Sequence record: PZ452584.1
Length of the DNA stretch: 64,000 nt
From: a phage
Reading direction: 5' to 3' (one strand)
Part shown: positions 9,957 through 19,333 of the stretch, piece after piece
How the letters are laid out: the number at the start of each line of letters is the position of its first letter
Position numbering within the stretch: position 1 is the stretch's first letter
The notes under the pieces: model-generated
Database searches by the model: none
Seen by the model: the letters and a program-made list of their open reading frames with translations, nothing else
What the model was told of the DNA's origin: nothing
Made by a program: the position numbers and the translations under genes

Positions 9957-11135
9957 TTAAAAGTATTTTTTAAAACTCATCATAACTTTATCATCAACAT
10001 CATTATCAATCTGTGCAACAAGGTAAGATGACAGTTCTACTTCTTGTGGCGCGGATTGAACATTATCAGAATTAAGATATTCACGAATCCAAGGATATGG
10101 ATGTTTAACCGGAGCATCGGTAATTGGGCATGGAAGACCACACTGTTTCATACGAGATACAGTTAAGTAATCAATAAAGCTCCACATGCTATTTGTATTT
10201 AATCCAGGAACATCGCCATCTTTAAATAAATGAACTGCCCAATCTTTTTCTTGGCGGTTAACTTCCATGAAAATATCAACTGCTTCTTGTTCACACTCTT
10301 GAGCAATTTTAACCCATTCATCACCATCAGTGCCAAGTTGAAGTTGACGAATAATATATTGTGTGCCTTTAAGGTGAAGCTGTTCATCACGTGCAATGAA
10401 CTTCATAATCTTGGCATTACCTTCCATGATTTCCATGTTCTTATGGAAGTTAAAGGTACATGCGAAAGATACATAAAAACGAATAGCTTCCAATGCGTTG
10501 ATTACATGCAAACAGAGGTAAAGAGATTTCATTAAAGCACGTTTAGCTTCGGCTTCTTGTTTAATAGCTCTGTTTAAACGAAAGTCGGCATCAGGAGATT
10601 CTTTAGCTAGTTCTACAAATTCTTTAGCATTTTCCCATTCACGGGTTTTAATCAGAACATCATCATAATAACGTCCAATTGATTCAGCACGTTTCATAAT
10701 AGCTTCATCTAATACAATCTCATCAAATACCTTTGACGGATCAGTATAAAGATTTCGCATGATATGAGTATATGAACGACTATGAATAGTTTCACTAAAA
10801 GTCCATGTAGCAACCCATGTATCAAGGCTTGGGTCTGAAATTAATGACATAAGTACAGCAGACGGCGCACGACCCTGAATGCTATCCAAAAGTGATTGAT
10901 ACTTCAGATTATTAGTAAAAATATTCTGCTGATACTGAGGAAGCTTATTAAACTGTGCAGCATCCATCATTAAGTTTACTTCTTCCGGGCGCCAGAAAAA
11001 TGATAAGGACTTTTCTGTGAGTTCTTCAAATACTCGATGCCGTTGAATATCATAACGCGCAATACCAAGACCTGAACCAAAAAACATAGGTTCTTTTAAA
11101 ACATCAACTGGGTTTGTATTAAAAACTGTGCTCAT
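9957..11135 (-). CDS. nrdB: ribonucleotide reductase small subunit (aerobic, class Ia)
   Basis: 392-aa continuous ORF; diiron R2 fold expected; no intron interruption. Confidence 0.9.
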   Translation of the reverse strand: MSTVFNTNPVDVLKEPMFFGSGLGIARYDIQRHRVFEELTEKSLSFFWRPEEVNLMMDAAQFNKLPQYQQNIFTNNLKYQSLLDSIQGRAPSAVLMSLISDPSLDTWVATWTFSETIHSRSYTHIMRNLYTDPSKVFDEIVLDEAIMKRAESIGRYYDDVLIKTREWENAKEFVELAKESPDADFRLNRAIKQEAEAKRALMKSLYLCLHVINALEAIRFYVSFACTFNFHKNMEIMEGNAKIMKFIARDEQLHLKGTQYIIRQLQLGTDGDEWVKIAQECEQEAVDIFMEVNRQEKDWAVHLFKDGDVPGLNTNSMWSFIDYLTVSRMKQCGLPCPITDAPVKHPYPWIREYLNSDNVQSAPQEVELSSYLVAQIDNDVDDKVMMSFKKYF

Positions 11136-11186
11136 AAATTTTCCGCTTAGTTAATAGTTAGTGACTCGTCCGTGAGTCAAATTATA

Positions 11187-13451
11187 TCATAATTTACAGG
11201 ATGAACAATCTTCAGCTTTTGGAGTTTCTATTTCATAATCATCAGTACCAGAACCATCACGGGTATTATGATAATAGAAATTTTTAATGCCATAATACCA
11301 TCCGTATAGCATATCATCAATCATTATTGACATTGGAACCTTTCCTTTTGGAAAAATCTGTGGGTCATAATATGTATTCGCCGAAGCTGATTGACATACC
11401 CATTTCAGCATAATAGCTACCTGCGTAAGATAAGGTTTATTACCTTTCTTAGCTAATTTCCATGTATAATCATATAGGTCTATGTTATGTTCAATATTGG
11501 GCACGACTTGATTAAAGGAACCCTCTTTTGATTCTTTAACAGAGACTGGTCCACGTGGAGGCTCGATACCGTTTGTACTGTTAGAAACTTGGGAAGATGA
11601 CTCACATGGCATAAGTGCTGATAGTGTGCTATTACGGATGCCAAAGAGCTTAAGGTCTTCCCGCAGCGACGACCAGTCACAAACGTATTTTGGAGCTGCG
11701 ATTTGGTCAATCTTTTTATTGTACCAGTCGATAGGTAATTCGCCTCGAGACCAACGAGTGTCTGAATAATATTCGCAAGGTCCTTTTTCTTTGGCGAGCT
11801 TAATGGATGCTTTAATGAGTCCATACTGTAATCTCTCAAATAGTTCATGTGTTAAATCGTTAGCATCTTCATAAGAAGCAAAGTTACTTGCCAGCCAAGC
11901 TGCATAGTTAGTAACACCTACACCAAGGTTACGACGCTTTTTAGCTTTTTCTGCTTCAGGAACTGGATATCCTTGGTAATCCAAAAGATTATCAAGAGCA
12001 CGAACTTGAACTTCTGCCAATTCATTAATTTTATCTTGGTCTTGCCAATCGAAGTTATCCAACACAAATGCAGATAACGTGCACAATCCAATTTCAGCAT
12101 CAGGGCTATTCACATCATTTGTTGGAATAGCAATTTCACAACACAAGTTACTCTGACGAATAGGTGCCTTTTCACGAATAAACGGAGTATAGTTATTCGT
12201 ATTATCAATGAACTGCACATAAATCCTTGCTGTTCCTGAGCGTTCAGTCATGAGCAATTCAAATAGTTCACGGGCTTTAATACGCTTTTTACGAATATTA
12301 GGGTCTTTTTCTGCTGCTTCGTATAATTCACGGAAACGGTCTTGGTCTTTAAAATAAGAATAATAAAGCTCACCACCCATTTCATGCGGACTGAACAAAG
12401 TAATGTAATCATTCTTTCCGAATCGTTCCATCATCAAATCATTCAGCTGAACACCATAATCCATATGACGAATGCGGTTTTCTTCTACGCCTTTGTTATT
12501 TTTCAAAACGAGAAGATTTTCAACTTCCAAATGCCAAATAGGATAATAAGCAGTAGCAGCGCCGCCACGAATTCCACCCTGTGAACATGATTTAACTGCG
12601 GTCTGAAAATGTTTCCAAAAAGGAATAACACCAGTATGGCGTACTTCACCCATGCCAATCTTAGAACCTTCGGCACGAATCATACCAACGTTAATACCAA
12701 TTCCAGCGCGTTTAGAGATATATTCAACAATTGAAGCGGAAGCCTTATTGATAGACTTTAATGAATCACCTGCCTCAATAACAACGCATGAACTAAACTG
12801 TCGAGTCGGAGTACGACAACCAGCCATAATAGGAGTTGGCAATGAAATCTGTCGAGTAGATACTGCTTCATAAAAACGGATAACATGTTTTAATCTATCA
12901 ACAGGTTCATCTTGATGCAGTGCCATTCCAATAGTCATAAATGCAAACTGTGGAGTTTCATAAATTTGACCAGTGGTTTTATCTTTGACTAGATATTTTT
13001 CTTTTAATTGCATCGCCCCGGAATAAGTAAATTCCATATCCCGCTCGTGCTTAATTTTTGATTCTAAAAATGTAATTTCTTCTGCTGAATATTTTGACAA
13101 TAATTCAGGGTCATATTTACCTTCATTTACACAGTAAGAAATATGGTCAATAAATGAACGTGGTTCATACTGCCCATAAACATGCTTACGAAGAGCAAAC
13201 ATTAAACAGCGTGCAGCTACATATTGATAATCAGGTTCTTCAACCGAAATAGAATTCGCAGCGGCCTTAATGACAATAGTCTGAATATCATCAGTTGTCA
13301 TTCCATCACGGAGATATGATTTAATATTTTCATATAATTCATAAGGATCTACTGATGTTCCCTCAGCTGCCCAAGATAAAACTTTAATAATTTTTTGTGG
13401 ATCAAAGCTCTGAGAAACACCACTACTTTTGATAACATTAATTAATTGCAT
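11187..13451 (-). CDS. nrdA: ribonucleotide reductase large subunit
   Basis: 754-aa ORF with ATP-cone N-terminus and active-site NxCxE region (SNLCCEIAIP); same length as T4 NrdA. Confidence 0.93.
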   Translation of the reverse strand: MQLINVIKSSGVSQSFDPQKIIKVLSWAAEGTSVDPYELYENIKSYLRDGMTTDDIQTIVIKAAANSISVEEPDYQYVAARCLMFALRKHVYGQYEPRSFIDHISYCVNEGKYDPELLSKYSAEEITFLESKIKHERDMEFTYSGAMQLKEKYLVKDKTTGQIYETPQFAFMTIGMALHQDEPVDRLKHVIRFYEAVSTRQISLPTPIMAGCRTPTRQFSSCVVIEAGDSLKSINKASASIVEYISKRAGIGINVGMIRAEGSKIGMGEVRHTGVIPFWKHFQTAVKSCSQGGIRGGAATAYYPIWHLEVENLLVLKNNKGVEENRIRHMDYGVQLNDLMMERFGKNDYITLFSPHEMGGELYYSYFKDQDRFRELYEAAEKDPNIRKKRIKARELFELLMTERSGTARIYVQFIDNTNNYTPFIREKAPIRQSNLCCEIAIPTNDVNSPDAEIGLCTLSAFVLDNFDWQDQDKINELAEVQVRALDNLLDYQGYPVPEAEKAKKRRNLGVGVTNYAAWLASNFASYEDANDLTHELFERLQYGLIKASIKLAKEKGPCEYYSDTRWSRGELPIDWYNKKIDQIAAPKYVCDWSSLREDLKLFGIRNSTLSALMPCESSSQVSNSTNGIEPPRGPVSVKESKEGSFNQVVPNIEHNIDLYDYTWKLAKKGNKPYLTQVAIMLKWVCQSASANTYYDPQIFPKGKVPMSIMIDDMLYGWYYGIKNFYYHNTRDGSGTDDYEIETPKAEDCSSCKL

Positions 13452-14008: not shown

Positions 14009-14869
14009 TTATACCGCCATTTTTCCTTTCAAGACACCGTAGGACTGATAATCTTTGAGAACGAAATCTTTAGGCCTGAGTTTAAGAACATATTCCAATT
14101 GTTCTTTAGTAGAAAGATAACGGAATTTATAAGGCAATCCGCCTATTACCAGTTCACAAAGCTCTTTAGGTTCACGACGCAAAATTTCTTTGCATTGTTC
14201 TACATGATTCATATAGATATGAGTATTACCACCAGAAAATATCAAATCTCCTGGAGTAAGATTACACATCTTAGCTATAATATGAACTAACGCAGCATAT
14301 GATGCAATATTAAATGGAAGGCCGAGAAAAACATCTACTGATCGTTGATACCACTGCAAATCCAAATAGCCATTACGCACATTAAACTGATAGAACATAT
14401 GACAAGGCGGTAATGCCATCTGCTTGATTTCAGCTGGATTCCATGCTGAAACGATTTGACGTCGATCAGTTGGTAATTTTTTAATACGATCAATAACTTC
14501 TACAATTTGGTCTACACCGCCAAAATCACGCCACTGTTTTCCATAAATTGGACCAAGTTCACCGCTATGGTATCCTAAATCTTTTGCTTGATTTTCGTAA
14601 TTTTCATCCCAGACTGTTTTGCCTTGGATTAACGAATCATGCTGAATTAATCGTAAATCATTGACATTTGTGCTTCCTGATAAAAACCATATTAACTCAG
14701 CAATGCAAGCTTTCCAAGCGAGCTTTTTAGTTGTTACCGCAGGAAAACCTTTAGTTAAATCCCAACGCAATTTAGTACCGAACAAAGCAATTGTTCCTGT
14801 GCCTGTTCGGTCATCGGTTTCATAACCATTTTCAAAAATGTCTTTAATTAAATCTTGGTATTGTTTCAT
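14009..14869 (-). CDS. td: thymidylate synthase (intron-less)
   Basis: 286-aa uninterrupted ORF with TS active-site region (LPPCHMFYQF); same length as spliced T4 Td. Confidence 0.93.
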   Translation of the reverse strand: MKQYQDLIKDIFENGYETDDRTGTGTIALFGTKLRWDLTKGFPAVTTKKLAWKACIAELIWFLSGSTNVNDLRLIQHDSLIQGKTVWDENYENQAKDLGYHSGELGPIYGKQWRDFGGVDQIVEVIDRIKKLPTDRRQIVSAWNPAEIKQMALPPCHMFYQFNVRNGYLDLQWYQRSVDVFLGLPFNIASYAALVHIIAKMCNLTPGDLIFSGGNTHIYMNHVEQCKEILRREPKELCELVIGGLPYKFRYLSTKEQLEYVLKLRPKDFVLKDYQSYGVLKGKMAV

Positions 14870-14914
14870 TTAGTACCTTATATAAATTATAATACATTTT
14901 ATGAAGCTAAATAA

Positions 14915-15274
14915 TCAATACGGTTTAGCATCAAATTTTCTCTCAATTTCAGGTGTGAAATATAATTCTTTACCGCGTTTGGAAAAGCGACCAATAATAT
15001 GATAATTATTCTCATCAAACGTAATATTACCAATATCCATAGCTTTCAACCAAATATCGATATTTCTATCCAGCTTTATGTCAAAATTCCAATACGGAGA
15101 ACTATTACCAAAAATACTACAAGCGGATTCAGTGAAACAGCTACTATAAATCTTGTCTTTAGGAACTACTAATTGATAGACACCTTTAATAAACTGAGGA
15201 CCTTGCCATTTTGGCTGTTTCGCGTCTTTTTCTAATAGAATAGGATAATAATTAAAATTCATATTTTCCGCCAC
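14915..15274 (-). CDS. hypothetical protein (115-119 aa) inserted between frd and td
   Basis: Long ORF in AT-rich DNA; first ATG at 15262 with weak SD, track start is GTG. Confidence 0.45.
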   Translation of the reverse strand: MAENMNFNYYPILLEKDAKQPKWQGPQFIKGVYQLVVPKDKIYSSCFTESACSIFGNSSPYWNFDIKLDRNIDIWLKAMDIGNITFDENNYHIIGRFSKRGKELYFTPEIERKFDAKPY

Positions 15275-15282
15275 GCGTTATT

Positions 15283-15867
<585 letters not shown>

Positions 15868-16110
15868 TCAAAACCCCCTTTCAATAAACCATTCAGTGGC
15901 TTTATTAGCATCAAAGAATAATTCTTCATATGTCTTTTCTTTGTTTTCAAAAACTGTCACACAAACACGTTGACATTCTCCACAGTATTCTTCTGACATA
16001 CTTAAAGCGTCAGAAAACATTTCTTTAAATTCATTTAAATCAGGATTATGCAATGCGTTAAAAATTGCATAATCAAATTCATCATTCATAAATTCAAATA
16101 CAAAAATCAT
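15868..16110 (-). CDS. hypothetical protein (80 aa)
   Basis: Track ORF; Cys-rich (CGECQRVC). Confidence 0.45.
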   Translation of the reverse strand: MIFVFEFMNDEFDYAIFNALHNPDLNEFKEMFSDALSMSEEYCGECQRVCVTVFENKEKTYEELFFDANKATEWFIERGF

Positions 16111-16120
16111 ATTGTTTTCC

Positions 16121-16363
16121 TTAAACAGACTTTTTCACAATTTTCCAATCAGCTTTAAACTGCTCGACGTCAGAGTGATGAATCCAGAAACCAGATGAGC
16201 TACCATCTTCATAAAGAGGACAACCATCGCACTCATCTTTCCAACCCATCGCGCATAAAGTTTCTTCAGCTTTTTCCAGAGCTTCTGGATTGTTACCCTG
16301 GATTGTAAAGTACCATTTGCCTTTAACTTCTGAATCTTTGATGCTCTCACGTTGTAATTTCAT
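16121..16363 (-). CDS. hypothetical protein (80 aa)
   Basis: Track ORF; CDGC motif. Confidence 0.45.
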   Translation of the reverse strand: MKLQRESIKDSEVKGKWYFTIQGNNPEALEKAEETLCAMGWKDECDGCPLYEDGSSSGFWIHHSDVEQFKADWKIVKKSV

Positions 16364-17671: not shown

Positions 17672-18580
17672 TTAAAGGTCATTCAAAAGGTCATCCAGGT
17701 CCGTGTCATCAGCACTAGATGAACTGCCAGAGCTTGAGCTCATAAAATCATCTTCAGTTTTTGTATTGAAGTCATCAACATTGAATGCATCCAAATCATC
17801 AGCAACTTTATCAGCTTTCTTAGCAGCAGTTGCAGCGGCACCGCCCATCACAGCAGTTCCCATAACTTGACCGAATTTAGTATTCAGTTCTTCAAACGAT
17901 TTGAATTTATCTTTAGAAGTCATTTCAGAAAGGTCAACCATTTGTTCGAACAGTTCTTTCTGGAAAGATTCATCGTCAATGTTTGGAATCGCAGATTGAT
18001 TCAGGAATTTAGATTCGTCGTAGTTACTAAATCCGGAAACTTGTTTAACTTTCAGTACAAAGTTAGCACCTTCCCACGGACAAGTTACATCAACCGGAGT
18101 TTCACCCATTTCAACATCAACTGCAATCATTGCGTTGATTTTATCCCAGATTTTCTTACCGAAACGGTATTTAAATACTTTACCTTCATTTTCTGGAGCA
18201 GCTGGGTCTTTTACTACAAGAATGTTAGCCCAGTAAGAAGTTTTACGTTTAACAAGACCGTACTCTTTATTGTCAGTGTTGTACAAATCATTTTTACTGA
18301 TGTACTGACATACTGGGCAAGAATCGTAATCACCATGGGTAGATGAACATGTTTCAATATACCATTTACCATTTTTCTTGAAACCGTGATTTACAAGAAT
18401 TGCGAATGGTGCTTGTTCATCATTTTTAGACGGAAGAAAACGAATTACTGCTTGACCGTTACCCGCATTATCGAGTTTCAGTTTCCACTCGCCTTTATCT
18501 TCAGAAGAAAAACCACCTTTATTTCCAGCCAGTTTAGCCATTTGTGCAGCGAGTTCAGCAGTAGATTTACGTTTAAACAT
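17672..18580 (-). CDS. 32: gp32 single-stranded DNA-binding protein
   Basis: 302-aa [20 protein letters not shown]... with acidic C-terminal tail; matches T4 gp32. Confidence 0.95.
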
Positions 18581-18663
18581 TTTTATTTCCTTTTTAATTT
18601 AATTAACAGTTGGTGCTATGACGATGTATGACCTCATAGCTGGTCAGTGAGATAATTATAATC
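18581..18663 (-). promoter_or_regulatory. gene 32 5' leader (candidate autoregulatory translational operator)
   Basis: Unusually long A/U-rich leader ...uuaauuaaauuaaaaaggaaauaaaaAUG preceding gene 32. Confidence 0.45.
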
Positions 18664-18671
18664 TATTTATA
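18664..18671 (-). promoter_or_regulatory. late promoter TATAAATA upstream of gene 32
   Basis: tatttata on plus strand about 85 nt upstream of gene 32 start, inside gene 59 3' end. Confidence 0.5.
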
Positions 18672-18679
18672 ATAAGCAA

Positions 18680-19333
18680 TTAATACTTGCAAGATTTCAC
18701 AGTTTCAATGAAAACACTTTTAGCTTTCTGTGAATCAATATTTAAAATTTTTCTATAAGCTTTTAACTTTATAGAATAATTATTCCAAACTAAATTATCA
18801 GTCTGTTCATCATGTTTATCAATTATATTTAAAAACGAATCAAGTAAGATAAACGTCTCAAACGAAATTATATTCGATTGAAGCAGTTTAAAAATATAAC
18901 TTGACTGAACTTTTGGATTATATTCAAAGATTTCTTTAAAAGCAGAAACTTCAACTTTCTTACTAAAATAATAAATGTTGCGAATATCTTCTTCAAACTT
19001 AAATTTAATTTGCTTTAAGCGTCCGATATATTCACGATAAAACACAAGTGCATCAGCGTCAGAGATGTCACCAATCCAAGCATCTTGGTTAGCAACAAGA
19101 TTGCTTATAAAGATTAAAGCAAGTTCCTTTAATTTATATTTTTCTGATAACTTCTGGAAAAAATACTTATCCCTTCGCTTTTGATAAGCGGCATCAGACA
19201 CCCGCATGCACCAATTATACTTAATTACATCATACTTTCCATTCATATGCTGTTTTATCATTAAGTATAATTTATAAACTGATTTACCATCAATGTATCT
19301 TTCACCACCAGCAGGCATGCGGAGTTTAATCAT
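18680..19333 (-). CDS. 59: gp59 helicase-loading protein
   Basis: 217-aa ORF MIKLRMPAGGERYIDGKSVYKLYLMIKQ...; same length as T4 gp59. Confidence 0.9.
   Translation of the reverse strand: MIKLRMPAGGERYIDGKSVYKLYLMIKQHMNGKYDVIKYNWCMRVSDAAYQKRRDKYFFQKLSEKYKLKELALIFISNLVANQDAWIGDISDADALVFYREYIGRLKQIKFKFEEDIRNIYYFSKKVEVSAFKEIFEYNPKVQSSYIFKLLQSNIISFETFILLDSFLNIIDKHDEQTDNLVWNNYSIKLKAYRKILNIDSQKAKSVFIETVKSCKY

What the first reader, a model, noticed from the sequence alone, without database searches (positions are those of the whole stretch)
14915..15274. Extra ORF inserted between frd and td
In T4 the frd stop codon overlaps the td start codon. Here a 115-119-aa ORF of unknown function separates them, with frd ending at 15283 and td starting at 14869. 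A long open frame in AT-rich DNA is unlikely to be random. This looks like an accessory-gene insertion at a junction that is fused in T4.
Basis: partly seen in the sequence, partly recalled or inferred. Interest (0 to 1): 0.45.

Follow-up and report, generated by a model that had tools for sequence, protein, structure and literature searches.

The report
Known small gene td.1 between frd and td
The extra open frame between the dihydrofolate reductase and thymidylate synthase genes is a real, well-conserved but uncharacterised T-even phage gene (called td.1 in phage T6) that most T4 relatives carry and T4 itself lacks, so it is an ordinary accessory gene, not a new insertion.

Summary
An open frame at 14915..15274 (-) lies between frd (15283..15864) and an intronless td (14009..14869), and in T4 the two genes overlap by ATGA. 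The likely start is the ATG at 15262, giving 115 aa.

It is a real gene. The protein is identical in T2, T6 and RB6, it is named td.1 in a T6 GenBank record, and it belongs to PHROG 1928 (unknown function). About 350 Tequatrovirus records carry it. pN/pS is 0-0.1.

Diverged homologues (30-66% identity) sit directly after frd in at least seven other T4-like lineages, often with a tandem paralogue.

The slot has three alleles in Tequatrovirus records:
- td.1, about 70%
- an unrelated 68-aa ORF, about 26%
- the fused T4 type, about 4%

T4 equals the window minus 417 bp bounded by an 11-of-12-nt direct repeat (TAAATGAAA core). One Klebsiella phage and one metagenomic contig carry frd-A-B-C-td, which favours differential loss. 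A Mosigvirus has clearly acquired td.1 horizontally, so the direction of change in Tequatrovirus is unresolved; I put it at about 60:40 for loss in T4.

The parts
14915..15262 (-). td.1 coding sequence (115 aa, ATG start; stop TGA at 14917..14915). PHROG 1928, predicted small beta-barrel protein.
   Evidence: phrog_1928, E 9.5e-36; 100% aa identity to T2, T6, RB6; pN/pS 0-0.1; named td.1 in T6 record; AF2 pLDDT 78.7.
15263..15274 (-). Upstream in-frame extension to a GTG (the 119-aa reading). Probably untranslated leader holding a weak Shine-Dalgarno-like GGCGGA.
   Evidence: Homologues start at MNFNYY, and GenBank records annotate 348 nt.
15281..15289 (-). Left copy of the direct repeat TAAATGAAA, which includes the frd stop TGA at 15285..15283. 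Extends to 15278 as 11 of 12 nt.
   Evidence: D1, spacing 417.
14864..14872 (-). Right copy of the direct repeat TAAATGAAA, which includes the td start ATG at 14869..14867. Extends to 14861 as 11 of 12 nt.
14884..14907 (-). T4 middle-promoter-like element (MotA-box core AGCTTCA, 12 nt, TAATTT, with TATAAT overlapping) in the 45-bp spacer between td.1 and td.
   Evidence: pattern found 24 times versus 6.95 expected in the window; this site is one of them. (a promoter is annotated at the same place in phage Lutter). (spacer conserved among td.1-type alleles). This is a consensus match only; no transcript data.
14870..14914 (-). 45-bp td.1-td intergenic spacer with AAGG (14879..14876) as the likely td ribosome-binding site. 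It replaces the translational coupling seen in T4.
   Evidence: The Mosigvirus copy has a 15-bp version that lacks the promoter-like block.
15283..15864 (-). frd (dihydrofolate reductase), left flank of the slot.
   Evidence: 95% aa identity to T4 Frd.
14009..14869 (-). td (thymidylate synthase), intronless, right flank of the slot.
   Evidence: blastn aligns the window across the T4 exon 1 / exon 2 junction with no intron.

Best explanation
The feature is td.1, a genuine and dispensable protein-coding gene of T-even-type phages (PHROG 1928).

Shown:
- It lies on the same strand as frd and td, with no terminator-like hairpin between them.
- It is under strong purifying selection.
- Its family is an old resident of the position immediately downstream of frd across many Tevenvirinae lineages, often as two tandem paralogues (A and B), sometimes followed by a third unrelated small gene (C, 68 aa).
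- The frd-td slot is polymorphic. Tequatrovirus genomes carry A (td.1), or C, or nothing.
- The same cassettes recur at high identity in Mosigvirus (A) and Dhakavirus (C), so alleles are exchanged between co-infecting genera.
- The T4 junction equals this window minus 417 bp bounded by the repeat TAAATGAAA(C/T)AA.

Inferred:
- T4 lost td.1 by recombination between those repeats. The repeats exist because frd ends AAATGA and both td.1 and td begin ATGAA.
- In this genome td.1 is transcribed with frd from upstream promoters. td then gets its own MotA-type middle promoter and ribosome-binding site from the 45-bp spacer, in place of the ATGA coupling used in T4.

Inferred with low confidence:
- The product is a soluble 13.6-kDa beta-barrel with OB-fold-like topology and a conserved basic hairpin, G-R-F-x-K-x-G.
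- No acidic or histidine residues are invariant, so it is more likely a binding protein (nucleic acid or a protein partner) than an enzyme.
- It is made together with the nucleotide-synthesis enzymes.
For: Gene reality:
- about 350 Tequatrovirus records; 100% aa identity to T2, T6 and RB6.
- PHROG 1928, E 9.5e-36.
- 17 synonymous versus 0 non-synonymous differences against T2.
- named td.1.

Old resident of the slot:
- one or two homologues between frd and td in five further phages (Kanagawavirus, Gelderlandvirus, Karamvirus, Winklervirus and an unclassified Klebsiella T4-like phage).
- shared motifs QKKW, HGIY and GRFxKxG.
- frd-A-B-C-td arrays in L013 and in Klebsiella phage phi1_146055.
- distant family representatives also sit directly after DHFR.

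Divergence tracks the flanks roughly: Frd 45-55%, Td 72-78%, ORF A 30-47%.

Three alleles.

Diversity of td.1 within Tequatrovirus (95-99% nt) matches that of the flanks (94.6-95% window versus T4). That argues td.1 is as old as the genus.

Exact 417-bp difference at repeats.

Inter-genus exchange:
- NHEP29 td.1 is 89% nt identical (pS 0.44) while its td is 73% (pS 0.74).
- the JS98 68-aa ORF is 97% identical to that of Paracelsus while Frd is 78%.

Promoter-like element. No terminator-like hairpin in 14700..16200.

Fold:
- pLDDT 78.7, pTM 0.75; strand-strand-strand-strand-helix-strand-strand-strand order.
- only uncharacterised T4-like phage proteins match in BFVD.

No enzyme signature. Invariant residues are G, W, Y, F, L, Q, R and K only.
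Against: - Direction of change is not settled. RB69 and T4 share the same fused junction sequence.
- Within the E. coli T-even genera, td.1 was seen only at about 89% nucleotide identity or more.
- The window's td.1 is 63-66% identical to the L013/L014 copies even though Frd is only 48-49% identical. By contrast, L013 versus the Klebsiella phage gives A 39% with Frd 63%. This anomaly would fit horizontal acquisition by Tequatrovirus.
- Other perfect 9-nt repeats occur by chance in the same 471 bp. The repeat is notable only for its position.
- The promoter is a consensus match with one mismatch to the TGCTT core. The generic sigma-70 scan is at chance level.
Confidence: 0.75

Rival explanations
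1. The fused ATGA junction is ancestral for the E. coli T-even genera. td.1 (with its 3' spacer) was acquired by Tequatrovirus from a more distant T4-like phage and inserted at the junction, duplicating or using the TAAATGAA microhomology. It then spread by recombination.
For: - T4 and RB69 share the identical fused junction TATAAATGAAACAATACC.
- Most Mosigvirus records are fused.
- A Mosigvirus (NHEP29) clearly gained td.1 at exactly this junction, flanked by the 8-nt repeat TAAATGAA.
- td.1 is anomalously similar to the L013/L014 copies (63-66%) relative to Frd (48-49%).
- The insert is flanked by 9-12-nt direct repeats that resemble a target-site duplication.
Against: - The family sits in the same slot in at least seven other lineages, and the unrelated 68-aa allele is also part of the same A-B-C array. 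Differential retention needs fewer events.
- Diversity of td.1 within Tequatrovirus equals that of its flanks, so it is not a recent arrival.
- td.1 is the 70% allele and the fused state the 4% allele.
- There is no transposase and no convincing terminal inverted repeat; only AT-only 8-9-mers were found.
- Most of the repeat is forced by coding: frd ends AAATGA, and td.1 and td begin ATGAA.
Confidence: 0.35
2. td.1 is a free-standing homing endonuclease, or a degenerate remnant of one, that drives its own spread into td.1-less genomes. Several BASEL-collection GenBank records label it 'putative homing endonuclease'.
For: - Annotation in AndreasVesalius, AugustSocin, WilhelmHis and AdolfPortmann.
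- Patchy presence between two conserved genes and cross-genus transfer at high identity. This is the distribution typical of seg and mob genes, as reviewed in PMC2988022.
Against: - No GIY-YIG, HNH, LAGLIDADG or PD-(D/E)xK domain was found in any of 35 family members, even at E up to 10.
- There is no invariant acidic or histidine residue.
- No nuclease ranks among the leading structural matches.
- At 115 aa it is far smaller than I-TevI (738-nt coding sequence).
- Deep conservation with pN/pS below 0.1 and the tandem A/B paralogues are unlike selfish endonuclease genes.
Confidence: 0.03
3. The ORF is a chance open frame in an AT-rich spacer and is not expressed.
For: Chance ORFs of 120-160 aa do occur in wrong frames of this window. 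By my arithmetic, about 2-3 are expected.
Against: - 17 synonymous versus 0 non-synonymous changes against T2.
- Intact in about 350 Tequatrovirus genomes.
- Homologues down to 30% identity share motifs and a confident common predicted fold.
Confidence: 0.01

Closest known systems
Td.1 hypothetical protein of phage T6 (GenBank AY262134.2, ABI48938.1) and its T2/RB-phage copies; PHROG 1928
   Same: Same gene. The window's 115-aa product matches at 100% amino-acid identity in the complete T2, T6 and RB6 genome records. In the annotated T6 record it has the same position between frd and td and the same 348-nt length. The HMM match to phrog_1928 is full length.
   Different: Nothing of substance. 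The window differs from T2 only by synonymous changes. No function has been assigned to the family.
The T4 frd-td ATGA overlap (NC_000866; known from the original T4 frd/td sequencing, recalled from my own knowledge)
   Same: Flanking sequences are collinear and about 95% identical. The T4 junction sequence is the window's with one copy of the repeat.
   Different: T4 lacks the 417 bp that carry td.1, the promoter-like spacer and the separate td ribosome-binding site. In T4, td translation is coupled to frd.
Free-standing homing endonuclease genes of T-even phages (seg, mob; review PMC2988022)
   Same: A small gene sitting between conserved genes, with patchy distribution and transfer between related phages.
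   Different: No nuclease domain, no catalytic residues, no structural match to nucleases. The family is ancient and under purifying selection. No cleavage site is known.
OB-fold nucleic-acid-binding domains (RPA, SSB, Teb1, HIN, S1)
Hyperplastic regions and modular shuffling of small ORFs in T4-type genomes (Comeau et al. 2007; Arbiol et al. 2010; recalled from my own knowledge)
   Same: Alternative small-ORF cassettes lie between conserved genes and are exchanged among related phages.
   Different: Here the boundaries are start/stop-codon microhomologies rather than promoter-stem-loop cassettes. No hairpin was found in 14700..16200.

Membership tests
PHROG 1928 / Td.1 family | Significant full-length match to the family profile | tested here: met
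   E 9.5e-36, residues 8-115 against profile positions 2-125 of 126; the CC31 and Klebsiella homologues hit the same PHROG.
PHROG 1928 / Td.1 family | Conserved motifs (QxKW, G-x-Y, G-R-F-x-K-x-G ... F) | tested here: met
   Invariant in both alignments: W19, G27, G91, F93, K95, G97. L9, Y29 and R92 are invariant in the 35-sequence alignment. Q16 and F102 are invariant or nearly invariant. All are present in the window protein.
PHROG 1928 / Td.1 family | Position immediately downstream of frd and upstream of td | tested here: met
Homing endonucleases (GIY-YIG, HNH, LAGLIDADG, PD-(D/E)xK) | Recognisable nuclease domain or catalytic motif | tested here: not met
   no Pfam hit for any of 35 members at E up to 10; no invariant D, E or H.
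Homing endonucleases (GIY-YIG, HNH, LAGLIDADG, PD-(D/E)xK) | Structural similarity to a nuclease fold | tested here: not met
Homing endonucleases (GIY-YIG, HNH, LAGLIDADG, PD-(D/E)xK) | Site-specific cleavage of the allele that lacks the gene, and super-Mendelian inheritance | not testable with these tools
   Needs in vitro cleavage assays and T2 x T4 crosses.
OB-fold domains | Five-stranded closed beta-barrel with a helix between strands 3 and 4 | tested here: inconclusive
OB-fold domains | Binding of oligonucleotide, oligosaccharide or protein on the barrel face | not testable with these tools
   Needs EMSA or pull-down experiments.
Transposable element insertion | Flanking direct repeats (target-site duplication) | tested here: met
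   D1: 11 of 12 nt at spacing 417. Most of the repeat is explained by the frd stop and td start contexts, and other 9-nt repeats occur by chance in the same region.
Transposable element insertion | Transposase or recombinase gene, and terminal inverted repeats | tested here: not met
   The only ORF has no transposase or integrase domain. Only AT-only 8-9-nt inverted matches lie near the ends (I3 and I4).
T4 MotA-dependent middle promoter | MotA box (a/t)(a/t)(a/t)TGCTT(t/c)A about 12 bp upstream of a TAnnnT -10 element (consensus recalled from my own knowledge) | tested here: inconclusive
   the core pattern is matched at 14884..14907 and is enriched 3.5-fold in the window. The box reads TTTAGCTTCA, one mismatch to the consensus; a promoter is annotated at the same place in phage Lutter. 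There are no transcript data.

The most novel reading that the evidence does not exclude
Td.1 and its A/B paralogues would be a previously unrecognised class of small OB-like binding proteins, co-translated with phage DHFR and thymidylate synthase across Tevenvirinae. They might act on the dNTP-synthesis complex, or on a host factor or defence system. T4, the model phage, happens to have lost the gene, which would explain why it was never studied. A second novel element would be that stop/start-overlap motifs (AAATGAA) act as the recombination joints that let whole genes drop out of, or into, this operon without breaking translation.
Probability: 0.12. Interest if true: 0.5.

Novelty: already known. 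Interest (0 to 1): 0.2.

Why it matters
The finding has modest value.
- It shows that the textbook frd/td overlap of T4 is the rare state among its relatives, about 4% of sequenced Tequatrovirus records.
- It shows that a conserved, selected gene of unknown function sits inside the nucleotide-synthesis operon of T2, T6 and most T4-like phages.
- It corrects misleading database labels for this ORF ('putative homing endonuclease', 'putative glucose-1-phosphate adenylyltransferase').
- It documents a tidy three-allele slot whose boundaries fall on start/stop microhomologies. That slot is a convenient natural system for studying gene loss and exchange between co-infecting T-even phages.

It does not reveal a new kind of element.

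Tried and rejected
1. Homing-endonuclease reading. Rejected: no domains, no catalytic residues and no nuclease fold.
2. The 45-bp td.1-td spacer as a decayed 3' remnant of the 68-aa ORF. Rejected: local alignment scores are matched by 71-78% of shuffles.
3. The spacer as a copy of another promoter region in the window. No other match was found, even with 3 mismatches.
4. td.1 as a distant paralogue of neighbouring small-gene families (FRD2, DUF5417, DUF7247, NrdA.2, ORF68). hhalign probabilities were all at or below 5.4%. The window's own copies were dropped from that run by a script naming clash, but the other members sufficed.
5. Known defence or anti-defence families, NCBIfam, and PDB by sequence. 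Nothing was found.
6. Long repeat proteins that appeared in the representative search (SprB-repeat, PEGA and similar). These are spurious beta-repeat matches.
7. Rfam over the whole window. No RNA family matched.
8. Literature. Full-text searches for 'phrog_1928', 'frd and td' and 'td.1' found no paper that discusses this gene.

Full report
**Observation.** The window is a Tequatrovirus (T4-like) genome segment, about 95-96% identical over 25 kb to several sequenced phages. Three genes lie on the minus strand:
- frd, 15283..15864, 193 aa, 95% identical to T4 Frd.
- An open frame, 14915..15274.
- An uninterrupted td, 14009..14869, 286 aa.

In T4 (NC_000866) frd starts at 145109 and td ends at 145112. 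The coordinates and the recollection are both right.

The open frame can be read from a GTG (119 aa) or from the ATG at 15262 (115 aa). The ATG is favoured. Homologues begin MNFNYY at an ATG that overlaps the frd stop, and GenBank records annotate 348 nt.

**Is it more than chance?** Length alone is not decisive. With a stop frequency of 0.066, a 119-codon open stretch has P of about 3e-4. By my arithmetic that predicts two or three chance ORFs of this size in six frames of 64 kb, and wrong-frame ORFs of 121-159 aa are indeed listed nearby. Conservation and selection are what decide it.
- The 115-aa product is 100% identical in T2, T6 and RB6 and at least 95% identical in about 350 phage records.
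- Against T2 the gene differs by 17 synonymous and 0 non-synonymous substitutions. All pairwise pN/pS values are 0.00-0.11.
- It is a real, selected gene.
- A T6 GenBank entry (AY262134.2) already names it td.1, 'hypothetical protein'.
- It belongs to PHROG 1928, function unknown.

**What the family looks like.** Pfam, NCBIfam, PADLOC and PDB sequence searches found nothing. A profile search of 1.84 billion representative proteins returned only 54 hits. Nearly all are 95-150 aa; a few long beta-repeat proteins among them are spurious.

Homologues at 30-48% identity lie in the same place, directly after frd and before td, in these phages:

| Lineage | Example |
|---|---|
| Kanagawavirus | Q7622 |
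| Karamvirus | CC31 |
| Gelderlandvirus | S16 |
| Winklervirus | Virsaitis27 |
| Klebsiella T4-like phage | K65_evo1 |

Most of these carry two tandem paralogues: a short A type, to which td.1 belongs, and a B type with a roughly 20-residue insertion. Genes there overlap by ATGA or similar.

The closest relatives outside Tequatrovirus (63-66% identity) are on two metagenomic T4-like contigs, again right after frd. Two distant representatives I looked up also sit just after DHFR, or between DHFR and thymidylate synthase. A third lies in a different context.

Motifs shared across the family are QxKW, G-x-Y and G-R-F-x-K-x-G followed by F. No acidic or histidine residue is invariant.

**The slot is polymorphic.** Comparing the junction across phage records gives three Tequatrovirus alleles (counts are approximate, derived from the coverage classes in the cited searches).

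| Allele | Approx. records | Share | Examples |
|---|---|---|---|
| td.1 | 350 | about 70% | window, T2, T6 |
| Unrelated 68-aa ORF (PHROG 9550), overlapping both the frd stop and the td start | 135 | about 26% | Paracelsus |
| Fused T4 type | 20 | about 4% | T4, HY03, FN |

RB69 and most Mosigvirus genomes are fused, with the same junction sequence as T4. Dhakavirus JS98 carries the 68-aa ORF, unannotated and 97% identical to the Paracelsus copy.

One metagenomic contig (L013) and Klebsiella phage phi1_146055 carry all three genes in the order frd-A-B-C-td, where C is the 68-aa family. The Tequatrovirus alleles therefore look like different leftovers of an older A-B-C array.

**The T4 difference in detail.** The T4 junction is the window's sequence with 417 bp removed between two copies of TAAATGAAA. 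The copies lie at 15289..15281 and 14872..14864 on the minus strand, and they extend to 11 of 12 nt.
- The left copy contains the frd stop and the right copy the td start. One recombination between them gives exactly the ATGA overlap.
- Much of the repeat is forced. Frd ends ...Y-K-stop (TAT AAA TGA), and both td.1 (ATGAAT) and td (ATGAAA) begin ATGAA.
- Other perfect 9-mers repeat by chance in the same 471 bp. The repeat is remarkable only for where it sits.
- No transposase and no convincing terminal inverted repeats are present.

**Direction of change.** These points favour loss in T4:
- The family is widespread in this slot, and A-B-C arrays exist.
- td.1 is the majority allele.
- td.1 diversity within Tequatrovirus (95-99% nt) equals that of its flanks (about 95% window versus T4).

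These points favour gain:
- T4 and RB69 share one fused junction.
- td.1 is unexpectedly close to the L013/L014 copies (63-66%) given Frd at 48-49%.
- There is one clear case of acquisition. Mosigvirus NHEP29 has Frd 97% and Td 98% identical to RB69. Yet it carries td.1 at 89% nucleotide identity to the window (pS 0.44), while its td is only 73% identical (pS 0.74). The gene is inserted precisely at the fused junction and flanked by TAAATGAA.
- About 20 Mosigvirus records have td.1 and over 100 do not.

The slot alleles clearly move between co-infecting genera. I put loss in the T4 lineage at about 60% and gain in the T2-type lineage at 35-40%.

**Expression signals.** No terminator-like hairpin lies between frd and td, so td.1 should be transcribed with frd. 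The 45-bp spacer after td.1 contains AGCTTCA, then 12 nt, then TAATTT, with TATAAT overlapping. That is a match to the core of T4 MotA-dependent middle promoters.
- The core pattern occurs 24 times in the window against 6.95 expected.
- A promoter is annotated at the same spot in phage Lutter.
- The spacer is conserved among td.1-type alleles.
- The Mosigvirus copy has a 15-bp spacer without this block.

AAGG at 14879..14876 is the probable td ribosome-binding site. These are consensus matches, not evidence of use.

**Protein.** AlphaFold2 with a 35-sequence alignment gives mean pLDDT 78.7 and pTM 0.75. The model has four strands, a helix at 68-77 and three more strands. The very confident C-terminal hairpin carries GRFxKxG.
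- Foldseek against PDB finds nothing.
- Foldseek against viral models finds only uncharacterised T4-like phage proteins; weaker matches include Aeromonas phage proteins.
- The AlphaFold-database library was unavailable.
- Calculated pI is 8.5 and mass 13.6 kDa.

My working reading, at low confidence, is a small OB-like binding protein (nucleic acid or protein partner) made together with the nucleotide-synthesis enzymes. It is dispensable in the laboratory, since T4 and RB69 lack it.

**Alternatives considered.** The 'putative homing endonuclease' label in several BASEL records has no support from domains, residues or fold. The 'glucose-1-phosphate adenylyltransferase' label in two other records has no domain support either. 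td.1 is not related to the neighbouring small-gene families. The spacer is not a detectable remnant of the 68-aa ORF. Full-text searches found no paper discussing td.1.

**Verdict.** But it is a long-known, widely distributed hypothetical gene (td.1), and T4 is the unusual one. Novelty: already known. Interest: low (0.2). The residual interest lies in the unknown function of a selected gene inside the T-even nucleotide-synthesis operon, and in the three-allele slot.

Noticed in passing
L010:2568-2774 (Paracelsus), L018:6214-6420 minus strand (JS98), L013:5670-5879, L019:2501-2707: A different 68-aa ORF (MSNKLKVKDVP..., PHROG 9550, unknown function) occupies the same frd-td slot in about 135 Tequatrovirus records and in Dhakavirus JS98. 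Its start overlaps the frd stop (ATGA) and its stop overlaps the td start (TAATG). It is unannotated in the Paracelsus and JS98 records. Relatives at 42% identity occur in Phapecoctavirus genomes in another context.
   Followed up: partly
L015:1501-1848 (Escherichia phage NHEP29, PQ511150.1): A Mosigvirus (Frd 97% and Td 98% identical to RB69) carries td.1 at 94% aa / 89% nt identity to the window, although its td is only 73% nt identical. This is a clear cross-genus transfer into the fused junction. About 20 Mosigvirus records share it.
   Followed up: yes
window 15868..16110 (-): Another 80-aa ORF (MIFVFEFMNDEFDY...) sits between the frd.1-like gene (16121..16363) and frd. T4 has only a 71-bp gap there. 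The same ORF is annotated in phage HY03. It is a second small accessory gene missing from T4.
   Followed up: partly
window 9957..13451 and 17672..19333: This genome lacks the T4 mobile elements of the region. td is intronless. The ORF at 9957..11135 (392 aa), which by size and synteny is nrdB, is contiguous. Only 51 bp separate it from nrdA (11187..13451), so there is no mobE or nrdB.1. Only about 100 bp separate the ORFs that by size and synteny are genes 32 and 59, so there is no segG. Gene identities for nrdB, 32 and 59 are inferred from size and order, not tested.
   Followed up: no
GenBank records MZ501050, MZ501052, MZ501113, MZ501046; MN580668/NC_054937, OR125554; AY310907.2: Database labels for this ORF are inconsistent. 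Four BASEL phage records call it 'putative homing endonuclease'. Records for pSe_SNUABM_01 and BW-1 call it 'putative glucose-1-phosphate adenylyltransferase'. It is not annotated at all in the 2003 T2 record. None of these functional labels is supported by the domain searches.
   Followed up: yes
whole window: The MotA-box core plus -10 pattern GCTTYA-N11-13-TANNNT occurs 24 times against 6.95 +/- 2.6 in shuffles. This is consistent with many middle promoters in this early/middle gene region. No Rfam family matched anywhere in the window.
   Followed up: no
L018:6417-7001 (JS98 frd) versus window 15283..15864: Nucleotide identity between the frd genes of JS98 and the window swings between 58% and 92% in 60-nt blocks. 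This suggests mosaic recombination between Dhakavirus and Tequatrovirus inside frd itself.
   Followed up: no
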